Assembly: GCA_964487045.1 (NCBI GenBank)
Contig: CAZAOT010000002.1
Location: 195,511 to 259,510 of the forward strand
Reading direction: 5' to 3'
Origin: an uncultured Candidatus Saccharibacteria bacterium
GTDB taxonomy: Bacteria > Patescibacteriota > UBA1384 > DTJR01
Length of the DNA: 64,000 nucleotides
Both the position numbers and the translations under genes were made by a program. Positions within the stretch are counted from its first letter, which is position 1, and each line of letters starts with the position of its first letter. Under the pieces are notes generated by a model that was not told the DNA's origin, did no database searches, and saw only the letters and a list, made by a program, of their open reading frames with translations. Of the stretch, positions 2,743-55,330 are shown in pieces.

Positions 2743-3195
2743 TTACACACCCAGCTCAGACAAATTTTCAATTAATTCTTCGGCCCTCTTATCAGATTTA
2801 GCCGATTCTTTTTCAAAACCTTCTTTGCTCCAAATCTCTACTCGGTCATACAGACCCAGTACCATCGCATCTTTCTTTAGCGAACCATGTTTTTTCAGAT
2901 AACCCGGTAAAACGATCCTTCCCTGATTGTCAAAGTCCACTTCCTGGGCCGACGCGAGAATTACCCTTGCGTAAAGCCGAGCTGATGATTTTGTGAGTGG
3001 TAACTCGGCAATACTCTGCGCCATTTGTCTAAACTTGTCTTTGGCAAACAAAAAGAGACAGCCATCGAGCCCTTTGGAAAGAACCGCTCCTGATTTAAAC
3101 TCCTTTCGGAATTTTGAAGGAATTGCGATTCGGTTTTTCTCATCGATTGTGTGCTCAAACTGTCCAATAAACATTGTTTCACCACTTTTCCCCAC
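2743..3195 (-). CDS. mraZ: Transcriptional regulator MraZ.
   Basis: MFIGQFEHTIDEKNRIAIPSKFRKEF... shows two MraZ/SpoVT-AbrB-like repeats. The true start is probably the internal Met at 3174 (MFIGQ...). First gene of the dcw cluster. Confidence 0.8.
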   Translation of the reverse strand: MGKSGETMFIGQFEHTIDEKNRIAIPSKFRKEFKSGAVLSKGLDGCLFLFAKDKFRQMAQSIAELPLTKSSARLYARVILASAQEVDFDNQGRIVLPGYLKKHGSLKKDAMVLGLYDRVEIWSKEGFEKESAKSDKRAEELIENLSELGV

Positions 3196-24696: not shown

Positions 24697-24771
24697 GGCC
24701 TCATCATCTAGTGGTTAGGATACCAGGTTTTCATCCTGGACACCGGGGTTCGACTCCCCGTGAGGTCACCA
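24697..24771 (+). tRNA. tRNA-Glu(TTC).
   Basis: Hand-folded cloverleaf. Acceptor GGCCTCA/TGAGGTC (one G-U pair), D-arm ATCT-AGTGGTTAG-GGAT, anticodon stem CCAGG/CCTGG with loop TTTTCAT (anticodon TTC), T-arm CGGGG-TTCGACT-CCCCG. CCA is encoded. Confidence 0.8.
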
Positions 24772-24819
24772 ATTAAATTTGTCTAGTAAGGAGTAGGTTT
24801 TTGTTCCACCCAAAAACCG

Positions 24820-24860
24820 CATCCTGGACACCGGGGTTCGACTCCCCGTGAGGTCACCAT
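24820..24860 (+). repeat. Direct repeat of the tRNA-Glu 3' half (anticodon-stem 3' strand through CCA), att-like scar.
   Basis: CATCCTGGACACCGGGGTTCGACTCCCCGTGAGGTCACCA is identical to 24732-24771. The preceding 5' portion does not match the tRNA. Confidence 0.7.
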
Positions 24861-24861
24861 C

Positions 24862-24890
24862 AGAAAATCACCCGAAAGGGTGGTTTTTTG
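24862..24890 (+). terminator. Hairpin terminator (cacccGAAAgggtg plus T6) directly abutting the duplicated tRNA-Glu 3' end. Also one arm of an inverted repeat with 27763-27800.
   Basis: atcagaaaatcacccgaaagggtggttttttgatgg. GNRA-type loop, 5-bp GC-rich stem, then T6. Confidence 0.55.
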
Positions 24891-24910
24891 ATGGCTTTGA
24901 TCCACGGGAA

Positions 24911-24990
24911 AAGAGTCGAAGGCCGGAGTGAGCGAAGGCGAACGAGGCGGGGTCGACGGAAATTTCAGCAGGAATTTACCGGTGACCGAC
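24911..24990 (+). repeat. Conserved tRNA-associated element, copy 1 of 3. Ends in a degenerate tRNA T-arm/acceptor-like segment.
   Basis: ggccggag...ggcggggtcgacgg-aaatttcagcaggaattt-accggtgaccgactccccgtgcg parallels 52131-52215 and the reverse complement of 38318-38398. The central hairpin is preserved by compensatory changes. Confidence 0.5.
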
Positions 24991-27661: not shown

Positions 27662-27680
27662 CAGGTTGGAGGGCCGAGTG
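27662..27680 (-). repeat. 19-bp copy of the tRNA-Lys(CTT) 3' end. Proposed left att direct repeat of the integrated element.
   Basis: ttggagggccgagtgggat is identical to 38222-38240, the 3' acceptor/T-stem of the intact tRNA-Lys. A further 9-nt copy (ggccctcca) at 27790-27800 is fused to an inverted copy of the 24862-24890 terminator. Confidence 0.6.
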
Positions 27681-27872
27681 GGATCCTCGGCGATAATAGC
27701 TTTTTCAAATGAACATCGCCTTGCGCACCCATCCTTCGGATGGGTTCAATTCCGAGACAATCTTCCATCAAAAAACCACCCTTTCGGGTGTTTTTCTGAT
27801 GGAGGGCCTTATCTTACGCTATTATAACCTTGATTGAAGATAATGAATACTGGAAAGCACTCGGTTCTAAAC

Positions 27873-28817
27873 TTAACTATGCTTTTTAATCAAACTATCA
27901 AAACTTTGTTTTTCAACATTTTGAGGCATTGAAGATCTTGGGACAACAGTGTATCTCACCGGCTTATCGCTATCCCTGTTTTTCTCAGGAATATGCTTTA
28001 TGACAAGACCCTTTGGCAATTTAAAAGCTAAAAGGAAAACGATGATGTCCTCGCAGAAAGGAAATAAATTTTCCCACATTTTTGATAAATAAGATGGAAT
28101 ATCTAAATCGTTAATTCTTGGTTCAACCCCAATTGGTTGATTCTTTGAGTCTAAGTGGTATTCAATGCAAGGAAGTTGAAAACCCGAATGTTCAATTTGT
28201 GTCCGTACATCAATGAATTGCGAAAACCACTTCTCTCTATCATCTTTAACCATATCAATGAAAAATTTCATTCCTCCACTTGGATTATTTTCTAAAAACT
28301 TTTTACTTTCCTTATCAAAGTCACTGTCTGATTTAAATATAAACGAAATTTTAAAATCTAAAAATTTTGCAAACCTAATTATGTTTTGATTAGCGATATA
28401 ACCTCTGATAAAAAAATCTTTGAACCAAATATTGAGATTGTCATCAATGGATTCATCTACTCTCAAAGTCTGGTTTTCCACTTTTACAATCTCTCCGCTT
28501 TTGATCTTTTGTCGGTGTTGAACAAGAAGGTTTACACACTCTTCCATTACAATTCTCGCTTCAATTAAATTTTGCAGGACTGGTCCATAAAATTTATCAA
28601 ACTCTCTACGATCCTCTTCCGTTGAGAATACAAAATCTCTTATCTCTAAAATCTGCATTCTCATTCTTGCAGTAAATAGATCTTGCGACCCAAGGTCAGA
28701 GACCTTTACTAAAGTATGTAAAATTTTCTGTTCCTTTTTGTTCATACAACACTTTTTATATTTCTTTCCGCTTTTGCAAGGGCAGGGATCATTTCTTTTT
28801 ATCTTTGTCATTTTCAA
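27873..28817 (-). CDS. SEC-C motif-containing protein of unknown function.
   Basis: N-terminal SEC-C metal-binding motif PCPCKSGKKYKKCC, followed by about 280 aa with no recognised family. Located inside the tRNA-Lys element. Confidence 0.55.
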   Translation of the reverse strand: MKMTKIKRNDPCPCKSGKKYKKCCMNKKEQKILHTLVKVSDLGSQDLFTARMRMQILEIRDFVFSTEEDRREFDKFYGPVLQNLIEARIVMEECVNLLVQHRQKIKSGEIVKVENQTLRVDESIDDNLNIWFKDFFIRGYIANQNIIRFAKFLDFKISFIFKSDSDFDKESKKFLENNPSGGMKFFIDMVKDDREKWFSQFIDVRTQIEHSGFQLPCIEYHLDSKNQPIGVEPRINDLDIPSYLSKMWENLFPFCEDIIVFLLAFKLPKGLVIKHIPEKNRDSDKPVRYTVVPRSSMPQNVEKQSFDSLIKKHS

Positions 28818-28931
28818 AAATTATTCTCCTGTCAATATTATTAGCCATAAACCACCAACCATGCAACAAGAGAACTTATTTTATTCAAACATTAAATACG
28901 TTATACTTAGGATAACTTAGGAGGGAATAAG

Positions 28932-30431
28932 ATGTTACCAGAGGAACAATCAAGTGCCAGCGCCTTATTAACAGTAAGTGAAGCCTCGGAAATATTAGGG
29001 CTACATCCCGATACCCTTAGAGATTGGGACAACTCTGGATTCTTGAAATGTATTAGAATCGGAAAAAGAAGAGACAGGCGTTACCAGAGAAATGATATTG
29101 AGAGGATCTTGTCGGAAGGCACCATTCAAAGAAAAACAGACCAAGGAGAGAGACTAAGACTAATTGAAGAGAAATATCACGTTAATTACCCCGAAACAAA
29201 TTCGGCTACATATACAAGTTTAGTTAACTATAGAGCGGACTTAAAAAGCCCCTTTCAAGGATGGTACAACTACAAGGAAGGATATTCTCTTGAGTTGAAT
29301 CACTTGATCTTTCAATATTTCGGCACGAAGGCAGGTGATTTAATTCTTGATCCCTTCTCGGGAAGCGGCACAACATTACTTGCAGCCAAACAGATAGGTC
29401 TCAGATCAGTCGGATATGAAGTAAATCCTTTTTCTCATTTTCTTTCTGTTGTTAAGACTAGAGATTATTCACCAACCGATTTAAAAACAATTAAAGAAAC
29501 CCTCTGCAATTTTAAAAAGGAGTCGCTGAAGAATGTTAAGTTTGACAAACCAAAGTTATCCACAATTGATAAACTATTTAGTTCTGAAACATTATCTGAA
29601 TTGATGGCAATCAGACAATTCGTTGATAACCTCCCAAGCCAAAAAACAAAGGATTTATTTTTCTTGGCTTGGTTGTCGGGTTTAGAAGAACTATCAAATT
29701 ATAGAAAAGCAGGAAATGGACTCAAAATTCGGAAGACTAAGAATCAAACAACACCAGATCCAAAAAAAACAATTATTCAAAAGATTTCATTAATGATTGA
29801 TGACATCAGCTCCCAGACAACAAAGTCATCCAGCAATGATTTAGAGCCAGTTATCTATAGGAAGTCTTCTCTCAATCTTATTGAAGATATAGAGAAAGGA
29901 TCCGTGAGAGGGGTGATATTTTCGCCACCCTACGCAAACTGCTTTGATTACACAGAAATCTACAAAATTGAATTGTGGCTAGGTGGGTTTGTGCACGACT
30001 ATTCCGATCTGAAGGAGTTGAGAATGGAGACAGTAAAATCTCATCTCAACAGGAAATTTGAAAATCATGGCGATCTTGATATTCCAATCTTGGCAAAGAT
30101 TATAGGAGAAGTTTCTAGGTCAAAGATTTGGGATAAAAGGATACCTAAAATGATTCAGGGGTATTTTGAAGATATGGGGCAAGCACTTTCTCAGCTGTAT
30201 TTAACATTAGAGAAGGGAGGGTTTTGCTGTGTGATTGTAAGTAATTCATCGTATTCCGGCATTATCATTCCAACCGATTTAATAATCTCAGAGATTGCCG
30301 AACAAATAGGATTTACTATTAGAAAAATAGATGTCGCCCGATTTATTATAACCAGCTCGCAGCAATACCACACTACAAAGAGATGGGGTAAATATTTAAG
30401 AGAAAGTATAATTTACATGGAAAAAATATGA
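28932..30431 (+). CDS. DNA methyltransferase (amino-MTase; probably N6-adenine) with an N-terminal MerR/excisionase-type HTH. First of two paralogous MTases.
   Basis: HTH SEASEILGLHPDTLRDWDNSGFL. SAM motif I LDPFSGSGTTLLAA. Catalytic motif IV SPPYANCFDY about 180 aa later. Confidence 0.75.
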   Translation: MLPEEQSSASALLTVSEASEILGLHPDTLRDWDNSGFLKCIRIGKRRDRRYQRNDIERILSEGTIQRKTDQGERLRLIEEKYHVNYPETNSATYTSLVNYRADLKSPFQGWYNYKEGYSLELNHLIFQYFGTKAGDLILDPFSGSGTTLLAAKQIGLRSVGYEVNPFSHFLSVVKTRDYSPTDLKTIKETLCNFKKESLKNVKFDKPKLSTIDKLFSSETLSELMAIRQFVDNLPSQKTKDLFFLAWLSGLEELSNYRKAGNGLKIRKTKNQTTPDPKKTIIQKISLMIDDISSQTTKSSSNDLEPVIYRKSSLNLIEDIEKGSVRGVIFSPPYANCFDYTEIYKIELWLGGFVHDYSDLKELRMETVKSHLNRKFENHGDLDIPILAKIIGEVSRSKIWDKRIPKMIQGYFEDMGQALSQLYLTLEKGGFCCVIVSNSSYSGIIIPTDLIISEIAEQIGFTIRKIDVARFIITSSQQYHTTKRWGKYLRESIIYMEKI

Positions 30432-31702
30432 ATAAAGTTGACCTTGAAATAGTGGAAGTAGACGAACTCCCCCTGAACCCAATAAGGAATCGCGTTTACT
30501 CCATTAACTCAAAAAATATCGGTGTATATACACACAGCTTTTTTAAGTATCCCTGTAAGTTTATCCCTCACATTCCAAGATGGGCAATAAAAAAATACCT
30601 TAAAGGCGACGGAGCGGTATTAGATCCTTTTTGTGGGTCAGGAACAACACTTGTAGAAGGTATCATTCTTGGTAAAAATTCTTATGGCATAGATATTGAC
30701 CCGTTTGGAAGAATGCTTACTCTAGGAAAGACCGAGCGATTTTCAGAAAAGGAAGTCATAGAGCTAGAAAAGATTGGTAGGGAAATAGTCAGAAAATCTA
30801 AAGATATGAAATTTGAGAAAAAATATATTCCACCAATTCCAAATATTGAGCATTGGTTTAGTCAACAAAGCATAGAATCTCTTGCCTCCATAAAAAAAGC
30901 TATTAAAAAATATTCTTTAAAAAGTAAATACGAAAATTTCTTTTATATAGTATTTGCTTCAATTATTAGGAAAGCATCTAAAGCCGATGAAGCGTCACCT
31001 AAACCATACATCTCATCCAGATTCGGTAAAAAACAATGCAATGTTTTTGATTTATTTGAGAAATTCTTTGATAAATATCTAATAAAGATTAAAGAGTTCA
31101 GCGCCATTGCCCCAAGAAAAAATATTTCAAAGATTGTCGGAAATGATGCGAGAAAATTCAAAAAGATGCCAGAGTCAATCAGCTTAGCTATAACCTCTCC
31201 CCCGTATATAAATGCATTTGATTATGTCAGAACACTTAAACTTGAAAACTACTGGCTTGATCTTGTTAACGAAGAAAAATTGTTAACGATTAGGTCTAAT
31301 AGCGTTGGCACAGAAACGATAGCTAAGAACGAACGTAATAAGCTTGTAATTAGCGATATTGAATCCAAGAAGCTCAGACACGCAGTAGAGGAGATAGCCG
31401 AGAAGGATAAGCGGAGATCAATCGTCGTAACCAAATATTTTGAAGACCTAGCGCTAAATCTTCAAGAGGTTTATAAGTCACTTAAGAAAGATGGGGTCTA
31501 TGTAATTGTTGTTGCAGATAGTAATATAAGAAATGTAGAGGTTCCAACACACGAAATACTTTGTGAGCTAGGCAAGAAAACTGGTTTTGTGGTTGAGAAT
31601 ATCTTTGCATATGTTATAAAGAACAGATATCTCCGAATTCCCAGAGAGGGACGAGGAGGGTTTATGCATAACGATTGGATAATATGCCTGAAGAAGAAGT
31701 AG
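30428..31702 (+). CDS. DNA methyltransferase (amino-MTase), paralogue of the upstream MTase.
   Basis: Motif I LDPFCGSGTTLVEG. Motif IV SPPYINAFDY. The 4-bp start/stop overlap with the upstream gene implies translational coupling. Two MTases suit an asymmetric Type IIS site. Confidence 0.75.
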   Translation: MNKVDLEIVEVDELPLNPIRNRVYSINSKNIGVYTHSFFKYPCKFIPHIPRWAIKKYLKGDGAVLDPFCGSGTTLVEGIILGKNSYGIDIDPFGRMLTLGKTERFSEKEVIELEKIGREIVRKSKDMKFEKKYIPPIPNIEHWFSQQSIESLASIKKAIKKYSLKSKYENFFYIVFASIIRKASKADEASPKPYISSRFGKKQCNVFDLFEKFFDKYLIKIKEFSAIAPRKNISKIVGNDARKFKKMPESISLAITSPPYINAFDYVRTLKLENYWLDLVNEEKLLTIRSNSVGTETIAKNERNKLVISDIESKKLRHAVEEIAEKDKRRSIVVTKYFEDLALNLQEVYKSLKKDGVYVIVVADSNIRNVEVPTHEILCELGKKTGFVVENIFAYVIKNRYLRIPREGRGGFMHNDWIICLKKK

Positions 31703-33477
31703 CAGTTGACGCTTCACAATCCAGAAGAGAAGTTTGGCTCATACCCAAGCGATGTAACATTCACCAAATTATTGGTATGGTTGATATTCTTGCGACACAA
31801 GATTTCAATGAACGGATTTGGAATCATGGTAAACAAGAAGCCCTAGGTACAAAAATGGGACTTAGAAAACTTACAGATTCGGGTAGATCAATTACTGGGC
31901 AATCTGTTAGAACTTTACTTGCGAATGGGCCTAAGTATCTAGGTTTTGTTTATATTGATGACGGATCAAAAAAAATATTTGTTACAGACATTGGTTTAGA
32001 GCTAATAAGGGAGAATCTTTTACATTCGGAAAATAATAGCAACCTATCCGACTGGGAAAATAATAATCCAATTGATTCTTCGGAAGCATTTAAGAAACAA
32101 CTTTCAAAGTTAATATTAAACAATCCTCTTGTACGTACTGAGACGAATGGTGTATTAGTCTTCCCCTTTAGGAATACAGTAAAGCTCGCTTTAGACCTAG
32201 AATATTTAGATATTGAAGAACTTGCCTACATAGTATTTAGCATGAAATCAGAAGATGAGTATGACTTGATTAAGGAGAGAATAATTAATTTCCGAGCATT
32301 GACCCCTTTGCAAAGAGATAGAGAGATTGAGGCTTATTCCAGAACCGAAGCTGGTCAGCTGACACTAGTTAAAGCCCCATCTGCTGGATATTACATGTCT
32401 TTTTGTTGCGCTTCGGGACTTTTTGAACGAACTCGGGTTAACGCGAATAGGACTAGGCAGCCGCTTGCGGCAATTAAATTGAGAGATCAAGATGGGGCTA
32501 TCGCCCTTGTTGAGAAATACCAAGCGGCTAGAATATATGATTTCAAAGAAAACTTAAAATTATGGATTGAATACTACTCCTCGCCTAATCGTCTCTTTCC
32601 TCCCCACGACATTACAATTAATTTCAAAGCAAATAAAGGCATATCTTTAGTTGAAATTTTTAAGGATGGAGTAGCTGTCGGTGGCGATATTATTGATGAA
32701 AATAATTCCAAGTTAGTCGTACCAATGTTCCCCGATGAACCCTATTCACTTATTGCTTATGATTCTGATGCGAGCAAGAATTATGAAAAACATATCTCTG
32801 TACAGAACGAAACAGGGGATGTTGAAATAGACCTCGGTACAAGCGAACCAACAGCAGAAGTTAGAACCTCCGAAAATATCAAAAAACTTATCCTGGAAAT
32901 GTTTTCAAGTAAAAGTGGCTTTGACAGTGAATATGAAAAAAGATTAAACCTCTTGCTGAGGAGATTATCTTTAAACCGCTTTGACAGTATTAGAAAGGGC
33001 GGACGACTAGAGTTTCTTTTCAGCGAATTACTTGAGCAACTAAAAAGCAATGGTGTTGTAGATTTCGTGAATTGGTATGGGTCAGTAAAACAATACGGTC
33101 TTGCCTACCCCGCACCTGGAGGTCTTAACGGTAACCCTGATATAGTATTCGGGATAGACAATATAACGGTTGTTCTTGAGCTCACCACAATAAGGGCCAA
33201 TGCTGGGCAATGGGCCGGATCTGAGGCCGCTTCTGTCCCTGATCACATTCAAAGATATCAAAGGGAGACTGGAGCAAAAGATAATATTTTAGGTATCTTT
33301 TGTGCTCCTAGCATCAACGACAGAGTAAGGAATAATTTTGCTGCTCACTCCGAAAGGTCCGGAAGAGCTCATATCTGCCTCTCGGTTGAAGAGATGCTAG
33401 AATTGCTTTCCCGGGACAGACAACACATAATTCAAGAACTTAGAGATTTACAAAGTCAGTCTATCTCCAGAGACTAA
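31675..33477 (+). CDS. Probable Type IIS restriction endonuclease (AlwI/PleI/N.BstNBI-family-like).
   Basis: 600 aa, overlapping the second MTase gene. The C-terminal region has a PD-(D/E)xK-like PDIVFGIDNITVVLELTT. The size and the two-MTase context match GAGTC/GGATC-type IIS systems. The family assignment is from memory, not from an alignment. Confidence 0.5.
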   Translation: MDNMPEEEVAVDASQSRREVWLIPKRCNIHQIIGMVDILATQDFNERIWNHGKQEALGTKMGLRKLTDSGRSITGQSVRTLLANGPKYLGFVYIDDGSKKIFVTDIGLELIRENLLHSENNSNLSDWENNNPIDSSEAFKKQLSKLILNNPLVRTETNGVLVFPFRNTVKLALDLEYLDIEELAYIVFSMKSEDEYDLIKERIINFRALTPLQRDREIEAYSRTEAGQLTLVKAPSAGYYMSFCCASGLFERTRVNANRTRQPLAAIKLRDQDGAIALVEKYQAARIYDFKENLKLWIEYYSSPNRLFPPHDITINFKANKGISLVEIFKDGVAVGGDIIDENNSKLVVPMFPDEPYSLIAYDSDASKNYEKHISVQNETGDVEIDLGTSEPTAEVRTSENIKKLILEMFSSKSGFDSEYEKRLNLLLRRLSLNRFDSIRKGGRLEFLFSELLEQLKSNGVVDFVNWYGSVKQYGLAYPAPGGLNGNPDIVFGIDNITVVLELTTIRANAGQWAGSEAASVPDHIQRYQRETGAKDNILGIFCAPSINDRVRNNFAAHSERSGRAHICLSVEEMLELLSRDRQHIIQELRDLQSQSISRD

Positions 33478-33650
33478 TCTTTTTTACGACTCGGAAAACT
33501 CGGTTTTTCTATTGATGAATCAGGGGCATTATCCAAAAAGCTCAAATAGCTCTAATTCCTTTTTTAGTGACTCTATAAACTCTGATTTGTTTTTTTAATG
33601 ACTCAGAAAACTCAGGTTTTCGCTATTACCTGCCGATATCAAACGTTTTT

Positions 33651-34892
33651 TTATAGTGAGGTTATCGTTTCGCCTAGTGGTGTGCTAAGTTGCCATTGAG
33701 GTCCATTGCTAGTTCCCATTTCATTTATCAACCCAAGCTCGTGTTGCTTCATCCAATCTTCAGGCGCTTTATAGGCATAATCTTGGTTTTTAACTAGGTT
33801 CATGCAATATGAAATATCTTTACAATCAGGTGGTAATTTAACCTGACCATCTTTATCTCTAACTTTTCCATAGTTTAGATCCCAGTCAATATATTCTTGA
33901 ATTTTTTCATCGCTATCAAAGAGATGAAAATAAGATGATTTATCCTTAGAATGCATTTCTCGCGCAGCATTTTTAAGTTCATCGTCCGTTGGTTTTCTTG
34001 AAAAAACGATCATTTTCCAAGTCTGCCCAGTTTGTTGATAACTTTTTACCTCTCTATAACTCAAAGCGGTAATTGGAGTGTTGGTAGGCGTTGAAGTTTG
34101 CGTTTTGCTCTGTTCAGTTTGCTTTGGGCTTGGAGTTTCTGTTGGGACTTGAGTTTTGTTTTCTATACTTTTAACCTTAGTTGGTACTTCCTTTGGAATA
34201 TAGTTTATGGCTATATCCTTACTCTCACTTTGATTCCCAGCTTTATCGCGAGCAATAATCTGAAATTTGTTCTCTCCCTTATCAAGGGCAATTCCTTTAA
34301 TGGTAAAGCTATTACTCTTAACCTTAACTTTTTTAATTTCTTTTGTATTTTTTATTACGACAATTTCCGCTTTTGCCTCGGAGCTTCCCTTGATATCTAG
34401 CTTATTTCGCTCCGTGGGGCTTTGTGGCGCTTCAATTGTCAGGGATGGGGATATTGTATCTAAAACCACTGATGCTTCATTGCTCTGCCTGATCCTGCCC
34501 TCCATATTTGTTGAACTTACCATGAGTTTATTTTCGCCTTCTTTTAGCTCTAAACTCTTAAATGAAAATTTGCCCTGATTATCTGCTTTGGCTTCTTCCT
34601 TTAATTCAGAATTGAAATAAATTTTCACCACCGAATCATTAAAAGCATTGGTTCCGGAAATTATAAGCGCTTTTTGATTCGTTGGACTTTTAACCGCATC
34701 TAAGTATGGAATTCCTTTTGCAAATACTGTGAATATTATTACAGAGGCAATAGTTAGAGGAACGAAGATCAAGGAAATGACTTTCCTATTTGAGTAACTT
34801 TTAAGAATTCGTTTAAAAACTAAAGGCTTAATCATTCCAACAATAAATGCTATTCCAAAAATGAAGAACAGCGCCATAAACAATGAGTCCAT
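33651..34892 (-). CDS. Membrane-anchored surface protein with Ig-like (Big-type) domains.
   Basis: 413 aa. N-terminal TM segments, then repeated beta-sandwich-like segments (…ISGTNAFNDSVVKIYFN…KGENKLMVSS…, …KGENKFQIIARDKAGN…) and a Thr/Pro/Gln-rich linker. Confidence 0.55.
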   Translation of the reverse strand: MDSLFMALFFIFGIAFIVGMIKPLVFKRILKSYSNRKVISLIFVPLTIASVIIFTVFAKGIPYLDAVKSPTNQKALIISGTNAFNDSVVKIYFNSELKEEAKADNQGKFSFKSLELKEGENKLMVSSTNMEGRIRQSNEASVVLDTISPSLTIEAPQSPTERNKLDIKGSSEAKAEIVVIKNTKEIKKVKVKSNSFTIKGIALDKGENKFQIIARDKAGNQSESKDIAINYIPKEVPTKVKSIENKTQVPTETPSPKQTEQSKTQTSTPTNTPITALSYREVKSYQQTGQTWKMIVFSRKPTDDELKNAAREMHSKDKSSYFHLFDSDEKIQEYIDWDLNYGKVRDKDGQVKLPPDCKDISYCMNLVKNQDYAYKAPEDWMKQHELGLINEMGTSNGPQWQLSTPLGETITSL

Positions 34893-35009
34893 AATATCCC
34901 CCGTTTAAATTAATTTATAGTTGGTCCAAACAATTAGAATGCTATATAATCACTGGTCAATATTCAAGTAGAGGAGTATAAAGTAAAAAGAATTAAAATT
35001 AAAATTAAT

Positions 35010-35660
35010 ATGAAATATTCAACTAGCACAACAGACAAAATCAAGAAGTTGTGCGAATTCATACAAGGACAGATTGAGCTTAAAGGTAAATTCAAAGTTC
35101 AGTTTGACGACACACATGCAGGAATTGCCAATGATACTAAAAATGTTATTGAGCTCTTAAGAAAAAATGAATGCCTGTTCAGAACAGTAGAGAAAAGGAC
35201 AATAGTATACCCAGAGAACTTTAACGAAGAACATGATTTCTTTACTCTTGAGATAGATCCAATAAAATTTAACAACTATATCAGAAATGAACTACGTATC
35301 CTTCCTCCAAGTATTGAAAGTATTGGTGAAATTAAGAAAATAGAATATCTGGAAAATTTCAGATCATTTTCTTTAAATGATAGAAAAAGTGAAATTCAAT
35401 TAAAGGGCGGAAAAAAGATTGCTGATATTCTTGAGCTCCTATGGAAGAATAGAAGAGTATCTAGAAAAGGTAGGGTTGATCCACTACGAATTGGAGAATT
35501 TTATAATATTGAACCTCTTATGCAAAATAGCAGAACAGTAAGTACAGAAGCTTTGCTCAGAAGTATTGGGAGGATTAATACTTTCTTCGTAGAAAACTAT
35601 CTACCAATGAGAATAGAAAGTAAGAATCAAGAAAAGTTTCGCCTAGAGATTAATTTTTGA
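35010..35660 (+). CDS. Hypothetical protein (element cargo).
   Basis: 216-aa ORF with typical AT-rich coding composition. No family recognised. Confidence 0.5.
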   Translation: MKYSTSTTDKIKKLCEFIQGQIELKGKFKVQFDDTHAGIANDTKNVIELLRKNECLFRTVEKRTIVYPENFNEEHDFFTLEIDPIKFNNYIRNELRILPPSIESIGEIKKIEYLENFRSFSLNDRKSEIQLKGGKKIADILELLWKNRRVSRKGRVDPLRIGEFYNIEPLMQNSRTVSTEALLRSIGRINTFFVENYLPMRIESKNQEKFRLEINF

Positions 35661-35788
35661 CAAGCGTTAGACAAAATTGGACAAAATTGACAGAGTTTTA
35701 GATTGAAGTTAGGGTGTGCTAAGCCGCATACGCTGAATCGTCTATTTTGTCTTATTCTGTAAAGCTGCCTGCGTGGTAATTTTATTCT

Positions 35789-36031
35789 ATGAATGAGAAT
35801 AACAATTACTACAAATCTTCCGACCTTGGCTGTTCAGCGGCATTAATTACTGCTGGTTTTGAATTAATGACGATAGAGAAAAATGACCCCAAGAGGGTTA
35901 TTTTTGTTTTTGATATATCAAAAGAGATACAGCTTTCCGCGGAAGACTATTTGTCTGACAGATTGCAGGTCAGTGCCCGAAGATATTTTGAAAATCTACG
36001 AGTTCTTAAAAGCAGAATTTACGCAGACTAA
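35789..36031 (+). CDS. Hypothetical small protein (element cargo).
   Basis: 80-aa ORF. No family recognised with confidence. Confidence 0.45.
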   Translation: MNENNNYYKSSDLGCSAALITAGFELMTIEKNDPKRVIFVFDISKEIQLSAEDYLSDRLQVSARRYFENLRVLKSRIYAD

Positions 36032-36177
36032 AAATAAAAAATGAAACTGCAACAAAATCAAACTAATCAACGCGAACTTTCAATGGAAGAATTGGAAGAC
36101 CTTTTCGCAGCCCAACTAGCAGAGATTTTTGTTGAGCAGATTTTAGATGAAGAAAAAAATAAAGATGAAAATTACCA

Positions 36178-36564
36178 ATGGACGAGTACGAACTTAAGTC
36201 AAAGCTAAGAGGTTATTTCAATTTCCCGAGATCACTTATTATTGATTTAGCTACAAATAATATAACGCCTGATCAATTTACTCTATTTACTGTTTTTCTA
36301 GGACTAGCTAGCTGGGACAGTAGAGGAAAAAACTATGCAACTATAAATACTTCTAATCGCGAGATTTCCAAAATACTCCACTGGAATAGAAATAAAATCG
36401 GGCTTAATAAGGGGTTACTATTTGGCCGCAAATATATTGATTTACTAAATGGAAAAAACCGCCAACTCAAAATAAGAATCAATAACCCTGAGCTATTTTA
36501 CTCAAAAATTACAGGAGAAGTGTCCAAGACGAGAGCCACTAAGGTTAATCCAAGGCCCACTTAA
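36178..36564 (+). CDS. Hypothetical protein, possibly a winged-helix DNA-binding or replication-associated protein (element cargo).
   Basis: 128-aa ORF directly upstream of the recombinase gene. Contains an HTH-like segment (NREISKILHWNRNKIGLNKG). Weak support. Confidence 0.4.
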   Translation: MDEYELKSKLRGYFNFPRSLIIDLATNNITPDQFTLFTVFLGLASWDSRGKNYATINTSNREISKILHWNRNKIGLNKGLLFGRKYIDLLNGKNRQLKIRINNPELFYSKITGEVSKTRATKVNPRPT

Positions 36565-36713
36565 CAGATTAAATTTCTTTATTTAATTTTCTTTGAAGAT
36601 AGCAATGTATTAATGAGAATAAATATTTTAATAATAAGGAGGCAAAAATGTTAGAATTGTTATAGAAGCAATAAAAAAAGTATAAACACTGGATAAATAA
36701 TTAATCAAAAAAA

Positions 36714-38264
36714 ATGAAATGTTTAATTTACTCACGAGTTAGTACCGAAGACCAAGCAGAAAAGGGACGATCAATTGGTGACCAAATCAAAATGTGCAAA
36801 AGATATGCTGATGACAACGGCTATCGCATTATAGATATATTCAAGGATGAAGGAAAAACTGCTACAAATATGAATCGGGCAGGGCTACAAGATCTAATCA
36901 TTAAATGTCAGGAAGAAAAGGATATAGCTTGTGTACTTGTACAAGACACGGATCGTCTTGCAAGGAACACATCCGATCATCTCCAAATAAAAGCGATTCT
37001 GAAAAAAGCAGGAGCAAGGGTAATCTCTATTAGCCAACCAATGCTTGATGACGAAACCCCCGAGGGTCAATTTATGGATTTGGTTATTGCAGGGGTAAAT
37101 GCCTTTCAGTCAAAAATTACAGGAAGAAAGGTGAGTAAATGCATGAAAGAGAAATTTCTTGAAGGTGTGTGGCCTAGCTGGGTAACCGTTGGATATATTA
37201 ATGACGATATCGGAACTCTAGAAAAACCTATGAATGTAATCTCAGATGATAAATTCAAACAGCCACTTATAAAGGAAGCTTTTAGATTATTCTCAAAAGG
37301 AATCTATAGCGTGGAAGAAGTCAACGACATAGTCTTCAAAAAGGGCTTAACCGGAAGGCATGGAAAAAAGATGTCTCCATCAGAGCTAAATAGGGTATTG
37401 AAAAACCCTTTTTATTTTGGATTGATGCGGTGGAACGGATTGGAAAAAATGGGTACGCACACTAAGATCATTACTAAATCTCTATTTGACCAGTGTCAGA
37501 ATGTTTTTATTGAACGCAATATGATGGCTAATCGTGAAAGAAAACATAACTTCCTATTAAGAGGTTTTGTCTACTGTGGAACTTGTGGAAAAAGATTGAC
37601 CGCTGAGTATCATGGCTCTAAATTTTATTACCATTGTGCTTCAAAACTTCATAGCAACAAAGGACAAAATTTTGATGGGGATACTACCGAAGCGAGAATT
37701 GAGCAATTGTTTGACCAACTTAAGTTACCAGATGACTTTACAAAAAAAGTATTTTCAAAAGCGGAGGAAATACTTAAGAATTCGCGTGTTGAAGTTAACC
37801 AGACAAAAAGAACTCTTAATGCACAAAAAGCAAAATTAGAAACAAAGAGAGACTCAATTGAAGATAGATTACTTGAAGGAGTAATTACCTCTGATGTATA
37901 TGTAAGGCAACATAATAGCGTTGAGGAGCAAATAAAAAATATTGAGAAACAGCTTGATGACGCAAATCATAATAAAAATGAGAATATAAAAGTTTTTGAA
38001 AAATTGATGTTTTTATCTGGAAATTTAGGAGAAGCTTACCGACTAGCTAATCCAAGAATCAAAAGGCATTACCTAACAATATTTTGGGATAGAATTGAAA
38101 TCAAAAATCATAAGATAAAAAAAGCGGTCCCGACAAAGACCTACTTAAAATTATTTCCTGGCATGAACTATAACAAACCTGAAAATTTGGTTGCGAACCA
38201 TAAAATTATAAAAGAACGAAATTGGAGGGCCGAGTGGGATTCGAACCCACGACCAATTGCTTAA
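36714..38264 (+). CDS. Large serine recombinase (integrase) of the tRNA-Lys-associated element.
   Basis: 516 aa. Resolvase-type catalytic domain (LIYSRVSTEDQ...DQ...DRLARN), a recombinase domain, a zinc ribbon (CGTCGKRLTAEYHG...YYHC) and a coiled-coil tail. The last 14 codons read into the tRNA-Lys 3' end, so the gene overlaps the att core. Confidence 0.85.
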   Translation: MKCLIYSRVSTEDQAEKGRSIGDQIKMCKRYADDNGYRIIDIFKDEGKTATNMNRAGLQDLIIKCQEEKDIACVLVQDTDRLARNTSDHLQIKAILKKAGARVISISQPMLDDETPEGQFMDLVIAGVNAFQSKITGRKVSKCMKEKFLEGVWPSWVTVGYINDDIGTLEKPMNVISDDKFKQPLIKEAFRLFSKGIYSVEEVNDIVFKKGLTGRHGKKMSPSELNRVLKNPFYFGLMRWNGLEKMGTHTKIITKSLFDQCQNVFIERNMMANRERKHNFLLRGFVYCGTCGKRLTAEYHGSKFYYHCASKLHSNKGQNFDGDTTEARIEQLFDQLKLPDDFTKKVFSKAEEILKNSRVEVNQTKRTLNAQKAKLETKRDSIEDRLLEGVITSDVYVRQHNSVEEQIKNIEKQLDDANHNKNENIKVFEKLMFLSGNLGEAYRLANPRIKRHYLTIFWDRIEIKNHKIKKAVPTKTYLKLFPGMNYNKPENLVANHKIIKERNWRAEWDSNPRPIA

Positions 38265-38297
38265 GAGGCAACTGCTCTACCGCTGAGCTATCGGCCC
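38223..38297 (-). tRNA. tRNA-Lys(CTT).
   Basis: Hand-folded. Acceptor GGGCCGA/TCGGCCC, D-arm GCTC-AGCGGTA-GAGC, anticodon stem GTTGC/GCAAT with loop CTCTTAA (anticodon CTT), T-arm GTGGG-TTCGAAT-CCCAC. CCA is encoded. Confidence 0.8.
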
Positions 38298-38317: not shown

Positions 38318-38492
38318 GTTCGAATCCGATTCGGTCACCCGTCAAAATCTGTTGATTTTGCGGTCGACCCCGGCTCGGCCCGTCGGCCTGCGCCTCTTTG
38401 ACGTTTAGCTCGCCATTCCACCCGTCGAGCCGTCAAAGCCCACGACCAATTGCTTGAAGTGCGACAACTGCACAACCCGTGAGCTATCGGCC
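38318..38492 (-). repeat. Conserved tRNA-associated element, copy 2 of 3 (38318-38398), followed by a degenerate copy of the tRNA-Lys 5' two-thirds (38437-38492).
   Basis: Minus-strand read: gggccgatagctcacgggttgtgcagttgtcgcacttcaagcaattggtcgtggg is a degenerate tRNA-Lys 5' part. Then ...aggccgacgggccgagccggggtcgaccg-caaaatcaacagattttg-acgggtgaccgaatcggattcgaac matches the elements at 24911-24990 and 52131-52215. The 70-aa ORF predicted here is rejected. Confidence 0.5.
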
Positions 38493-38550
38493 CAATCTTG
38501 AATTATTCTACCGTATTCGAGAGAATATTTCAATTCAACAAGACGCTTTT

Positions 38551-51935: not shown

Positions 51936-52010
51936 AACTTCATTCCTTCGGAATTTCGCTTGGCGAGCCAGATCATTTGCGGGCCCGCCCTGCCGAAGCT
52001 TTAAGCGAAG

Positions 52011-52085
52011 GCGGGTATAGTATAGTGGTTATTATGCGAGTTTTCCAAACTCGAGATGCGGGTTCGATTCCCGCTACCCGCTCCA
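52011..52085 (+). tRNA. tRNA-Gly(TCC).
   Basis: Acceptor GCGGGTA/TACCCGC. Anticodon stem CGAGT/ACTCG with loop TTTCCAA (anticodon TCC). T-arm GCGGG-TTCGATT-CCCGC. CCA is encoded. The D-stem is weak (3 bp). Confidence 0.7.
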
Positions 52086-52130
52086 GAAAAAATTACTCAG
52101 TAATTTTTGAGGTGGAGCGATCGGGAATTG

Positions 52131-52215
52131 AAAGGCGGAGGCCGACGGGCCGAGCCGGGGTCGAGCGCGATTTCAGCAGAAATCGACGCGTGACCGATTC
52201 CCGCTACCCGCTCCA
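52131..52215 (+). repeat. Conserved tRNA-associated element, copy 3 of 3. Ends with a 21-nt duplicate of the tRNA-Gly 3' end.
   Basis: aaaggcggaggccgacgggccgagccggggtcgagcg-cgatttcagcagaaatcg-acgcgtgaccgattcccgctacccgctcca. The last 21 nt repeat 52065-52085. The 152-aa ORF predicted across this tRNA region is rejected. Confidence 0.55.
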
Positions 52216-52231
52216 AAAAAGAAGGAAATAT

Positions 52232-55328: not shown

Positions 55329-55330
55329 TT

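What the first reader, a model, noticed from the sequence alone, without database searches (positions are those of the whole stretch)
24911..24990. Conserved element of about 80 nt with a covarying hairpin, found at three different tRNA loci, each time fused to a tRNA 3'-end fragment
Three copies are present: 24911-24990 (next to tRNA-Glu), 38318-38398 (minus strand, next to tRNA-Lys) and 52131-52215 (next to tRNA-Gly). All share aggccg(a/g)...ggggtcga, then a hairpin, then g(t/g)gaccga(c/a/t)tc, and end in a degenerate tRNA T-arm/acceptor segment. The hairpin stems differ between copies but stay complementary: gatttc/gaaatc, caaaatc/gattttg, gaaatt/aatttc. The loops are conserved (CAGCAG or CAACAG). 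Such covariation suggests selection on structure. Two of the three copies are beside large serine recombinase genes. The simplest reading is a conserved arm of the attachment site, or a small structured RNA, belonging to one family of tRNA-targeting integrative elements that have used different tRNAs.
Basis: seen in the sequence. Interest (0 to 1): 0.65.

Follow-up and report, generated by a model that had tools for sequence, protein, structure and literature searches.

The report
Structured cassette copying tRNA tails
A roughly 100-base folded element, apparently undescribed, sits just after many tRNA genes in the tiny genomes of Patescibacteria (candidate phyla radiation, CPR) bacteria, closes its fold with an inverted and a direct copy of that tRNA's own 3' tail, and comes and goes like a miniature mobile element.

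Summary
Three copies share GGGGTCGA-N9-CARCAG-N10-GTGACCGA, where 0 are expected by chance. All three hairpins stay paired through compensatory changes.

They belong to a large family. I found about 110 copies in at least 56 Patescibacteria/CPR assemblies. Rfam 15 has no match even at E<=10, IMG/VR has none, and I found no paper.

Anatomy, on the tRNA-sense strand:
- an intact tRNA
- an A/T-rich palindromic hairpin
- A', a decaying inverted copy of tRNA positions 56-76
- a conserved three-way junction: P2, then P3 with a CAGCAG loop
- an exact direct repeat of the tRNA tail from C56 to CCA

A' and the repeat pair to form the closing stem P1. P1 covaries with T-loop position 59.

The large serine recombinase (LSR) link does not hold. 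LSR genes occur in 5 of 75 loci. LSR1 in the window belongs to a separate island of about 10.5 kb integrated in tRNA-Lys.

Close relatives differ in whether, and after which tRNA, the element is present. Newer copies lie next to the tRNA, ahead of older remnants. Tails and A' decay, and four copies in one genome share an identical core.

Best reading, at about 0.5: a non-autonomous, structure-dependent mobile cassette that targets the tRNA T-loop and tail. The mobilising activity is unknown, and whether it acts as RNA or as single-stranded DNA is unresolved.

The parts
52011..52085 (+). tRNA-Gly(tcc), intact host tRNA of copy 3
   Evidence: ARAGORN; Rfam tRNA 70.1 bits
52086..52112 (+). Copy 3 spacer: A-run / hairpin / T-run palindrome (aaaaaattac-tca-gtaattttt). 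It continues the palindrome formed by the tRNA tail and A'.
   Evidence: Sequence. Palindrome score 0.44 against a control median of -0.12. Not called as a terminator by the simple scan.
52113..52129 (+). Copy 3 A' (P1 5' strand): a decayed inverted copy of tRNA-Gly 56-76. tggagcg pairs with cgctcca, and cgggaatt pairs with gattcccg.
   Evidence: MFE structure; family-wide P1 covariation
52130..52195 (+). Copy 3 conserved core. J1/2 GAAA (52130-52133). P2 (52134-52156): GGC-GGA-GGCC-GACG-GGCC-GA-GCC. J2/3 GG (52157-52158). P3 (52159-52195): GGUC..GACC base with an invariant G.U pair and loop CAGCAG (52174-52179).
   Evidence: CM hit of 92 bits. MFE -56.7 kcal/mol, z -4.9. Covariation.
52195..52215 (+). 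Copy 3 direct repeat: an exact copy of tRNA-Gly C56 to A76, including CCA. It is also the P1 3' strand. tRNA-Arg(tct) follows 16 nt later.
24697..24771 (+). tRNA-Glu(ttc), host tRNA of copy 1
24820..24859 (+). Extra exact duplicate of the tRNA-Glu 3' half (anticodon loop to CCA), 48 nt after the tRNA. Probably the scar of another integration event.
24860..24894 (+). Copy 1 spacer hairpin T* (TCAGAAAATCACCCGAAAGGGTGGTTTTTTGATGG). It is palindromic with the preceding CCA. A second copy lies at 27765-27799(-).
24903..24917 (+). Copy 1 A' remnant: cacggg pairs with cccgtg and gagtc pairs with gactc, the two separated by an AAAA bulge.
   Evidence: MFE -40.6, z -4.5
24918..24987 (+). Copy 1 core. 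It has the P2 variant with a tandem G.A hairpin (GUGAGCGAAGGCGAAC) and a P3 with loop CAGCAG (24966-24971).
   Evidence: CM 84.7 bits
24987..24998 (+). Copy 1 direct repeat, truncated. It matches tRNA-Glu positions 56-67 (cgactccccgtg) and then diverges.
38438..38493 (-). Copy 2: degenerate 5' part of a tRNA-Lys copy (positions 1 to about 53), directly upstream of the element.
   Evidence: 22-mer with 4 mismatches to the tRNA-Lys 5' end
38396..38437 (-). Copy 2: extra hairpin (tttgacg...cgtcaaa) that takes the place of the A' strand.
   Evidence: Same layout in L051, L074 and L083.
38333..38395 (-). Copy 2 core: P2 GGC-GCA-GGCC-GACG-GGCC-GA-GCC, and P3 with loop CAACAG. P1 is degenerate.
   Evidence: CM 60.4 bits. 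MFE -33.8, z -5.1.
38318..38333 (-). Copy 2: a 6-nt remnant of the tRNA-Lys tail (cgaatc), followed by ggattcgaa(c), which looks like the start of a further, deleted copy.
38223..38297 (-). Intact tRNA-Lys(ctt), downstream of copy 2. Its 3' end is overlapped by the LSR1 reading frame.

Best explanation
The three copies belong to a large Patescibacteria-wide family of small cassettes of about 150-190 nt that accumulate at the 3' end of tRNA genes.

Each cassette has four parts:
- an A/T-rich hairpin spacer;
- A', an inverted copy of the tRNA tail;
- a conserved three-way-junction core of about 65-85 nt;
- a direct copy of the tRNA tail from T-loop position C56 to CCA.

A' pairs with the direct copy to close the junction (P1). 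This places the conserved core exactly at the boundary with the T-loop sequence (..GUGAC|CGAnUCC..).

I read it as a non-autonomous, structure-dependent mobile element. It inserts at the T-loop/tail of a tRNA gene, leaves the tRNA intact because the tail is duplicated, and then decays.

Shown here: the anatomy, the covariation, the strand specificity, the tRNA linkage, the lack of a linked protein, the turnover between close relatives, the tRNA-proximal position of newer copies, the decay of tails and A', and near-identical cores at different tRNAs in one genome.

Inferred only: that the conserved junction is the part recognised by, or catalytic for, the insertion reaction; that insertion happens at position 55/56, or equivalently right after position 76; and that a trans-acting recombinase, nuclease or reverse transcriptase, or the fold itself, does the chemistry.

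Unresolved: whether the active form is RNA or single-stranded DNA, and how A' becomes matched to each new tRNA.
For: Family size and range:
- The covariance model gave 92 + 22 matches at E<=0.01 in the sources searched, a few of them weak hits in non-CPR loci.

tRNA linkage:
- 55 of 74 have an intact same-strand tRNA ending 42-180 nt upstream (two further off), covering 18 amino-acid types.
- Identity with the tRNA starts at the CGA of the T-loop. In 27 of 36 clean cases it ends within 1 nt of the tRNA 3' end.

Structure:
- P3 is 97.7% paired with 9 covarying pairs, and the P2a pair 34/66 reads CG35 GC21 UA7 AU4.
- The P1 pair opposite T-loop position 59 reads UA22 AU14 CG14 GC9.
- 0 of 500 shuffles reach the observed covariation, and slid registers drop to about 40% paired.
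- TTG/CAA replaces TCG/CGA at tRNAs with TTCAA loops.
- There is an invariant G.U pair, and the sense strand folds better than the antisense (z -4.9 and -4.5 against -3.3 and -1.8).

Palindrome:
- The stretch from tRNA position 56 to A' is a long imperfect palindrome. The median score is 0.27 against -0.12 for tRNAs without the element.

Signs of mobility:
- Relatives whose neighbouring SDR protein is 97% identical (L125) have no element. Those at 89% identity (L126) have one after tRNA-Pro. The window has one after tRNA-Gly, with MazG deleted.
- tRNA-Glu is empty in L119, L120, L123 and L124.
- L052 carries a new cassette between tRNA-Ser and the deleted remnant of the cassette that is intact in L094.
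- There are tandem and truncated copies.
- Four copies at three loci in genome MEVX, after at least two different tRNAs (Gly, Arg), share an identical core with different spacers and A'.
- Mismatched tails and A' show decay.

No linked gene.
Against: - No mobilising enzyme was identified.
- No excised form or clean filled/empty pair with identical flanks was found.
- The model does not explain how A' and the repeat come to match each new tRNA while the core stays identical. Gene conversion among cores is an alternative explanation for the identical cores.
- The deep conservation of the junction sequence across CPR classes, and the RNA-like motifs (tandem G.A, invariant G.U), would also fit a host-beneficial RNA.
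- The element lies inside tRNA operons. Copy 3 is 16 nt before tRNA-Arg, with a promoter-like site upstream of tRNA-Pro. It is therefore probably transcribed in any case.
- A few relatives of the core are not next to any tRNA (L037 5635, L093 2254, L044 6094).
Confidence: 0.5

Rival explanations
1. A host-beneficial small RNA made from tRNA operons. The three-way junction would bind a protein or ligand, and the appended tRNA tail (C56-CCA), held by P1, would act as a tRNA-tail mimic. Possible roles are a decoy or substrate for tRNA 3'-end enzymes or toxins, or a spare part for tail repair.
For: - Strong structure conservation with RNA-type motifs.
- Same strand as the tRNA and a position inside tRNA operons.
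- The tail copy usually ends exactly at CCA.
- Copies at the same tRNA-Arg(tct)/tRNA-Leu position in two WWE3 genomes differ by compensatory P3 changes (L053 and L071).
Against: - Presence and tRNA partner change between genomes whose neighbouring proteins are 89-97% identical.
- Tails and A' decay. In L049 the tail carries a mismatch that would break the acceptor pairing, and copy 1 keeps only 12 nt.
- There are truncated and tandem copies.
- An A-run/hairpin/T-run, possibly a terminator, often separates the tRNA from the element.
Confidence: 0.22
2. An RNA-level mobile or self-processing ribozyme. The junction would catalyse cleavage or ligation at the GAC|C56 boundary, with the P1 5' strand acting as an internal guide that pairs with T-loop/T-stem nucleotides 56-62 of a tRNA. 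DNA copies would arise secondarily through a reverse transcriptase. This is a special case of the best explanation.
For: - The conserved unpaired purines cluster at the junction next to the boundary.
- The guide-like strand covaries with T-loop position 59.
- The boundary is constant at C56.
- No linked protein.
- From my own knowledge, not tested here: DGR-type reverse transcriptases are common in CPR.
Against: - No similarity to any Rfam ribozyme at E<=10.
- My hand mapping onto the hammerhead and hairpin-ribozyme cores failed. For example, the A15.1-U16.1 equivalent is absent, and P2a covariation excludes the alternative pairing.
- Tails usually lack CCA when the gene lacks it, so they were not copied from mature tRNA. 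L029 and L085 are exceptions.
- Group II introns are reported absent from Patescibacteria (PMC13011429).
Confidence: 0.15
3. One reading: a conserved arm of the attachment site of tRNA-targeting integrative elements that use large serine recombinases.
For: - LSR genes lie within 0.3-1 kb of copies 2 and 3.
- In L112 an LSR frame abuts the tail repeat.
- Larger insertions sit between cassette copies in L045 and L036.
Against: - LSR genes are present in only 5 of 75 loci.
- There is no island between the tRNA and its repeat.
- The LSR1 island has its own repeat, 27667-27688 with 38223-38240, on the other side of tRNA-Lys.
- There are no matches in IMG/VR viral contigs.
Confidence: 0.05
4. Passive by-product: tRNA pseudogene fragments and palindromes produced by replication template switching at the self-complementary TTCGAA T-loop, with no selected function for the core.
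For: - The palindromic layout of tail, spacer and A'.
- Pseudo-tRNA 5' parts upstream of copy 2, L051, L074 and L083.
Against: A core of about 65-85 nt that is unrelated to tRNA sequence is conserved, with abundant compensatory changes, across at least 56 assemblies from many CPR classes.
Confidence: 0.03

Closest known systems
Genomic islands and prophages integrated at tRNA 3' ends (attL/attR repeats of the tRNA tail; T-loop sublocation described by Williams 2002 - my own knowledge)
   Same: The tRNA stays intact. A direct repeat of its 3' end starting in the T-loop bounds the insert. Newer inserts lie next to the tRNA.
   Different: The insert is only about 130-170 nt with no genes and no integrase. 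It carries an inverted copy of the tail and a conserved three-way junction that abuts the crossover point.
Integron gene cassettes and their attC sites (my own knowledge)
   Same: Small units in polar arrays at one fixed site. The recombination element has a conserved fold but a variable sequence, is strand-specific, and has short conserved boxes at the crossover.
   Different: There is no IntI gene or attI. The fixed site is a tRNA T-loop/tail. The stem arms are copies of the target itself. The cassettes carry no ORF.
REPINs, MITEs and Correia-type miniature elements (my own knowledge)
   Same: Non-autonomous, hairpin-forming, multi-copy intergenic elements of about 100-150 nt, presumably mobilised in trans.
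   Different: The terminal inverted repeats are not element-specific. They equal the tail of whichever tRNA is adjacent. Insertion is restricted to tRNA 3' ends. The centre is a conserved branched fold rather than a simple hairpin.
Retron msr-msd non-coding RNA (my own knowledge)
   Same: The topology is the same: a closing stem made of flanking inverted repeats, a conserved short hairpin, a long hairpin with variable sequence, and a conserved G just after the 5' strand of the closing stem.
   Different: There is no adjacent reverse transcriptase or effector gene, and no sequence similarity (Rfam). The closing stem is tRNA-derived.
Group I introns in tRNA and tmRNA genes of Patescibacteria (PMC13011429)
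   Same: The same phylum. A structured insertion associated with tRNA genes. tmRNA introns sit in the T-loop.
   Different: The core is 65-85 nt, against more than 200 nt for a group I intron. There is no Rfam group I match. The host tRNA is uninterrupted, and the element lies downstream of it.

Membership tests
Attachment-site arm of large-serine-recombinase integrative elements | A recombinase gene is consistently adjacent, and the element lies at the end of an island bounded by att repeats. | tested here: not met
   LSR homologues occur in 5 of 75 loci. The gap between tRNA and element is 42-101 nt in most loci, so there is no island. The LSR1 island has separate repeats.
Any curated RNA family (Rfam 15), including hammerhead, twister, twister-sister, hatchet, pistol, HDV-like, group I/II intron, T-box, tmRNA and IS605-type RNAs | A covariance-model match at the gathering score, or at least E<=10. 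| tested here: not met
   Only tRNAs reach the gathering score in the window. There are 0 matches at E<=10 on 52080-52225.
Structured RNA (or single-stranded DNA) element under selection for its fold | Compensatory base changes in several helices, beyond shuffled and slid controls. | tested here: met
   20 of 27 pairs change on both sides. The covariation score is 0.488 against a shuffled 0.155, reached by 0 of 500 shuffles. Pairing is 86% against 30-42% in slid registers.
Structured RNA (as opposed to a double-stranded DNA site) | Strand asymmetry: G.U is tolerated and A.C is not, and the sense strand folds better. | tested here: inconclusive
   In P3, G.U 79 against A.C 3, but 70 of the 79 come from one invariant pair. 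In P1, G.U 12 against A.C 31. The sense strand has the stronger z-scores. This fits RNA or single-stranded DNA of the tRNA-sense strand.
Mobile element | Presence/absence polymorphism between close relatives, and multiple near-identical copies at different sites. | tested here: met
   L125, L126 and the window differ at the tRNA-Pro/Gly/Arg cluster. tRNA-Glu sites are empty in four related loci. Identical cores sit at three loci (four copies) of genome MEVX. L052 has a new copy upstream of an old remnant.
Mobile element | An excised intermediate, or a filled/empty pair with identical flanks that defines the exact inserted segment. | tested here: inconclusive
   The metagenome scan for an empty tRNA-Gly/tRNA-Arg junction found nothing. 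The relatives found have diverged flanks.
MITE / REPIN | Element-specific terminal inverted repeats that are conserved between copies. | tested here: not met
   The inverted arms equal the adjacent tRNA's tail and differ between copies, while the core is conserved.
Self-cleaving ribozyme | Site-specific self-scission in vitro. | not testable with these tools
   No sequence match to known classes. My hand mapping to the hammerhead and hairpin cores failed.
Retron | An adjacent reverse-transcriptase gene. | tested here: not met
   No recurrent neighbouring protein family. No reverse-transcriptase family among the 20 window ORFs scanned.

The most novel reading that the evidence does not exclude
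The three-way junction is a new kind of guide-bearing mobile nucleic acid. Its 5' strand reads T-loop/T-stem nucleotides 56-62 of a tRNA or tRNA gene by base pairing. The fold itself, or a single trans-acting host enzyme that recognises it, joins the core to C56. This builds polar arrays of tail-duplicating cassettes at tRNA genes. That would make it an RNA- or ssDNA-programmed insertion system without an element-encoded protein, in the most reduced bacterial genomes known.
Probability: 0.15. Interest if true: 0.92.

Novelty: categorically new. Interest (0 to 1): 0.8.

Why it matters
Patescibacteria have genomes of about 1 Mb and little room for junk. Even so, this element follows 3 of the 7 tRNA genes in one 64-kb window, and about half of the tRNAs in the sampled loci, which were selected for carrying it.

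If it is a mobile element, it is a new way of parasitising tRNA genes without harming them: the tail is duplicated and the arms are built from the target. It would also explain many unannotated tRNA fragments and pseudo-tRNAs in CPR genomes. Its tail repeats appear to serve as secondary landing sites for larger islands (L045, L036, L112, and tRNA-Lys in the window).

If it is a functional RNA, it is a widespread and abundant new RNA class that carries a tRNA-tail mimic.

Either way it provides a defined, compact fold of about 100 nt with a testable reaction site at the GAC|C56 boundary. It should also be added to RNA family databases, which would improve CPR genome annotation.

Tried and rejected
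- Rfam at the gathering score and at E<=10: nothing but tRNAs.
- Hand mapping of the junction onto the type II hammerhead (GAAA / CUGANGA / NUH), hairpin-ribozyme loops, twister-sister and K-turn consensus. Each failed on at least one invariant feature, and the alternative pairings conflict with the covarying P2a helix.
- Group I intron remnant: too short and no model match. The mSystems paper on Patescibacteria tRNA introns concerns position 35/36 in the anticodon loop.
- TIGR-Tas arrays: unrelated 36-nt repeat units.
- LSR linkage and viral carriage: negative.
- Prediction that the spacer after the tRNA equals the flank after the repeat, as fold-back copying of the local flank would give: only marginal (mean 5.6 of 13 matches against 4.8 under the null), driven by tandem copies.
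- Idea that the tail is copied from mature tRNA with added CCA: two cases fit (L029, L085). Most genes without CCA have repeats without CCA.
- Idea that A' derives from the tRNA's own 5' acceptor and T-stem strands: rejected. A' includes the complement of NCCA, and it pairs with T-loop position 59 in the complementary register, not the copied one.
- Six literature searches found no description.
- The search for an empty tRNA-Gly/tRNA-Arg junction in metagenomes found nothing.
Full report

Yes. Reading the three places and aligning them shows a shared block of about 65-85 nt. Its most conserved part is GGGGTCGA-N9-CARCAG-N10-GTGACCGA.

With up to three mismatches allowed, this pattern occurs exactly three times in the window: 24949-24989(+), 38331-38371(-) and 52157-52197(+). 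None is expected in shuffled sequence. A covariance model built later, scanned with all filters off, finds the same three (92, 85 and 60 bits) and nothing else above noise.

Each copy lies beside a tRNA gene found by ARAGORN and Rfam: Glu 24697-24771, Lys 38223-38297(-) and Gly 52011-52085. Each copy ends in sequence identical to that tRNA's 3' part. The central hairpins differ in sequence and remain paired.

**2. What the element looks like**

After removing chance hits in GC-rich genomes, and one multi-copy gene of a Poriferihabitaceae genome, 74 true members remained, all in Patescibacteria/CPR assemblies. The lineages include Saccharibacteria, WWE3, Woesebacteria, Collierbacteria, Berkelbacteria, and Moran-, Nomura-, Campbell-, Kaiser- and Paceibacteria. 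They come from at least 56 assemblies.

A covariance model (R1) found further, more divergent copies in the same loci: 92 and 22 matches at E<=0.01 in two searches, a few of them weak hits in non-CPR loci.

The window itself is CPR. The closest named homologue of the gene next to tRNA-Glu is from Berkelbacteria, at 73% identity.

The common layout, all on the tRNA-sense strand, is:
- (i) An intact tRNA. 55 of 74 members have one ending 42-180 nt upstream (two further off), covering 18 amino-acid types.
- (ii) A spacer that is usually an A-run, a hairpin and a T-run.
- (iii) A 5' strand that I call A'.
- (iv) A junction, GAAA or GAAU.
- (v) P2: a 3-bp helix, an internal loop (GGA or GCA opposite GA), and a distal hairpin with a GACG-type loop, or a variant with tandem G.A pairs.
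- (vi) Two unpaired G residues.
- (vii) P3: a GGUC/GACC base with an invariant G.U pair, an irregular stem of variable sequence, and usually a CAGCAG loop.
- (viii) A direct repeat of the tRNA from T-loop position C56 to the 3' end.

Identity with the tRNA always starts at the CGA of the T-loop. In 27 of 36 clean cases it ends within 1 nt of the tRNA 3' end.

A' pairs with the start of the repeat to make the closing helix P1. The single-sequence folds of copies 3 and 1 give exactly this three-way junction: -56.7 and -40.6 kcal/mol, z -4.9 and -4.5. The opposite strand folds less well, at z -3.3 and -1.8.

**3. Is the fold selected?**

On 70 distinct sequences:
- P3 is 97.7% paired, with nine pairs that change on both sides.
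- P2a is 96.7% paired. Pair 34/66 reads CG 35, GC 21, UA 7, AU 4.
- The P1 pair opposite T-loop position 59 takes all four Watson-Crick forms: UA 22, AU 14, CG 14, GC 9.
- No shuffle out of 500 reaches the observed covariation score.
- Sliding the 3' partners by 1-3 columns drops pairing from 86% to 30-42%.

Where the tRNA has a TTCAA T-loop, the element reads ..GACCAAG.. and A' reads ..CTTG.., a further compensatory change.

**4. The inverted copy**

A' is more than a 7-bp guide. In many copies it is recognisably a full inverted copy of tRNA positions 56-76, including TGG opposite CCA. It has decayed by point changes and small deletions. Copy 3 reads tggagcg-at-cgggaat against a perfect tggagcgggtagcgggaat. 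L045, L018, L030 and L055 are nearly perfect.

The whole stretch from tRNA position 56 through the spacer to A' is a long imperfect palindrome. Its median normalised self-complement score is 0.27, against -0.12 for tRNAs without the element. The terminator-like hairpin is the tip of this palindrome.

Beyond the inner seven or so pairs, P1 pairing falls close to chance in the fixed register. The full-length arm is therefore a birth feature that decays, and only the inner part is maintained.

**5. The serine recombinases**

Both ORFs are large serine recombinases by Pfam: Resolvase, Recombinase and the zinc ribbon. In 75 family loci, LSR homologues occur in only five. An all-against-all comparison of 1,048 neighbouring ORFs finds no protein family in more than six loci.

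In the window, LSR1 (36714-38264) ends inside the 3' end of tRNA-Lys. An 18-nt copy of the tRNA-Lys tail lies at 27667-27688(-). This bounds an island of about 10.5 kb that carries methyltransferases and an AlwI-type restriction enzyme. Copy 2 lies on the other, 5' side of tRNA-Lys.

LSR2 (52427-53773) adjoins tRNA-Arg(tct) and a type I restriction system, not tRNA-Gly.

The recombinase proximity is explained by tRNA genes being integration hot spots. Tail repeats may add landing sites. Larger insertions sit between cassette copies in L045 and L036, and an LSR frame abuts the repeat in L112.

IMG/VR viral contigs contain no copy.

**6. Stable partner or mobile element?**

Several results point to turnover.

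(a) Relatives found through the neighbouring SDR gene differ at the tRNA cluster.
- At 97% protein identity, L125 has tRNA-Pro, a 2-nt gap, tRNA-Gly, MazG and tRNA-Arg, with no element.
- At 89% identity, L126 has an element after tRNA-Pro and none after tRNA-Gly.
- The window has the element after tRNA-Gly, and MazG is deleted.
- The flank after the repeat in the window (ccaaaaaagaagg) still resembles the ancestral flank (ccaaaaatgaaaa).

(b) tRNA-Glu is identical in L119 and L120 but carries no element there. L123 and L124 are also empty. L121 has only a mini-hairpin plus a tail repeat.

(c) L094 has tRNA-Ser, spacer s2, the element and the repeat. The related L052 has a different cassette directly after tRNA-Ser, followed by the first 13 nt of s2 and the 3' half of an older P3 with the start of its repeat. 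The newer cassette therefore lies nearest the tRNA.

(d) Tandem and truncated copies are common: L018, L033, L035, L058, L103 and L113.

(e) In one WWE3 genome (MEVX), four copies at three loci, after at least two different tRNAs (Gly, Arg), share an essentially identical core of about 85 nt. Their spacers and A' strands differ.

(f) Repeats and A' strands decay. The L049 repeat carries a change that would break an acceptor pair, copy 1 keeps 12 nt, and copy 2 keeps 6 nt.

A smaller class has a degenerate 5' part of the same tRNA directly upstream, an extra hairpin, a short repeat, and the intact tRNA about 30 nt downstream. It includes copy 2, L051, L074 and L083. These look like derivatives in which the unstable palindrome was partly deleted in a redundant tRNA copy. 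That is inference.

Other core types with the same A'/repeat architecture exist in L012, L040 and L049. A few relatives of the core are not next to a tRNA (L037, L093, L044).

**7. Most likely mechanism**

I favour, at about 0.5, a non-autonomous, structure-dependent mobile cassette that inserts at the T-loop/tail of tRNA genes. The segment gained, relative to an empty site, can be written in two equivalent ways: tail-spacer-A'-core inserted at position 55/56, or spacer-A'-core-tail inserted after position 76. Either way the tRNA remains intact.

The conserved junction lies exactly at the boundary with C56. It is the natural candidate for the site recognised by a trans-acting enzyme, or for the catalytic part. 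As a single strand, the unit folds into a rod, with tail and spacer paired to their inverted copies and the junction at one end.

Not explained: how A' and the repeat become matched to each new tRNA while the core stays the same. A fold-back or hairpin step that copies the local tail is suggested by the palindrome. Its simplest prediction, that the spacer equals the downstream flank, is not met in general. Gene conversion among cores is an alternative explanation for the identical cores.

Whether the active form is RNA or single-stranded DNA is open. The evidence for the tRNA-sense strand is the invariant G.U pair and the better sense-strand folds. The G.U against A.C counts are mixed.

**8. 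Rivals**

- A host-beneficial RNA with a tRNA-tail mimic (0.22). It fits the RNA-like fold and the position inside tRNA operons. It fits the turnover and decay poorly.
- A ribozyme-driven, RNA-level process (0.15). It is attractive because of the guide-like strand and the lack of a protein, but there is no similarity to known ribozymes, and most tails were not copied from mature tRNA.
- A passive by-product (0.03).

The last two are contradicted by the data above.

**9. Comparison with known systems and novelty**

The element shares single features with several known systems. With tRNA-integrating islands it shares the tail repeat and the polarity. With integron cassettes and attC it shares polar arrays and a fold that is conserved while the sequence varies. 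With REPINs and MITEs it shares size, copy number and the lack of genes. With retron RNAs it shares topology. It fails a defining feature of each (see the membership table).

It matches no Rfam 15 family. I found no description in the literature library. The nearest paper, on group I introns in Patescibacteria tRNAs, concerns a different position and a different, much larger RNA.

I therefore rate it as a new kind of element. The caveats are that its mechanism is not established and the literature search was limited to open-access text.

Noticed in passing
window 27667-38297: An integrated island of about 10.5 kb. It is bounded by tRNA-Lys(ctt) (38223-38297, minus strand) and an 18-nt copy of its 3' end at 27667-27688(-). 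It carries LSR1 (36714-38264), two N6/N4 DNA methyltransferases, an AlwI-type restriction enzyme, Ig-domain proteins and a SEC-C-motif protein.
   Followed up: partly
window 24860-24894(+) and 27765-27799(-): A 35-nt hairpin, TCAGAAAAWCACCCGAAAGGGTGGTTTTTTGATGG, occurs twice (0 expected by chance). Each copy comes immediately after a tRNA ...CCA fragment: the tRNA-Glu 3' half, and a short ggccctcca tRNA-Lys fragment at about 27800-27812. The second copy is followed by about 77 nt and then the tRNA-Lys tail copy. This resembles the cassette layout but with an unrelated, weakly structured middle (z -2.0).
   Followed up: partly
window 24772-24859: tRNA-Glu is followed, after 48 nt, by an exact duplicate of its 3' half from the anticodon loop to CCA. 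This looks like the scar of a different integration event with its crossover in the anticodon loop.
   Followed up: no
window 51936-52010: The 75-nt spacer between tRNA-Pro and tRNA-Gly contains a hairpin (cccgcc...ggcggg) whose 3' arm is the 5' acceptor strand of tRNA-Gly. In the close relative L125 the two tRNAs are only 2 nt apart.
   Followed up: no
L012 (tRNA-Ser-cga), L040 (tRNA-Lys-ctt), L049 (tRNA-Lys-ctt), L036 3164-3292 and 6172-6311: Other inserts share the flanking architecture (inverted tail strand + GAGAA/CGAAAG ... + direct tail repeat) but have different or much longer middle parts. This suggests a superfamily of tRNA-tail cassettes.
   Followed up: no
L037 5635-5737, L093 2254-2350, L044 6094-6191: Covariance-model matches of 38-50 bits keep P2 and the CAGCAG hairpin. 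They lack the GGGGUCGA/GUGACCGA base and have no tRNA nearby. They may be free-standing relatives or old derivatives.
   Followed up: no
L121 about 2985-3075: In a Berkelbacteria relative, tRNA-Glu is followed by ggacgag, a 22-nt hairpin and a slightly diverged copy of the tRNA tail. It is either a minimal or a collapsed version of the cassette.
   Followed up: no
L029 and L085: The tail repeat ends in CCA although the adjacent tRNA gene does not encode CCA. Most other genes without CCA have repeats without CCA.
   Followed up: partly
L001, L006, L015, L046 and about 10 further loci (OZ241969.1): A Poriferihabitaceae genome holds many identical copies of a GC-rich, apparently coding sequence that matches the search pattern by chance. 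It is unrelated to the element and is probably a multi-copy gene such as a transposase.
   Followed up: no
window 53841-56794: Two adjacent HsdM-type N6 methyltransferase genes (495 and 487 aa) lie next to LSR2, followed by an HsdR-type gene (57939-60911). This is a type I restriction system with a duplicated methylase, probably on a second island at tRNA-Arg(tct).
   Followed up: no
L060 and L094: The spacer after tRNA-Ser (tgctttcggcaggcttgcc...) is about 80% identical between a contig binned as Saccharibacteria and a WWE3 genome, although the tRNAs differ (tga and gga anticodons). This points to horizontal transfer or mis-binning.
   Followed up: no
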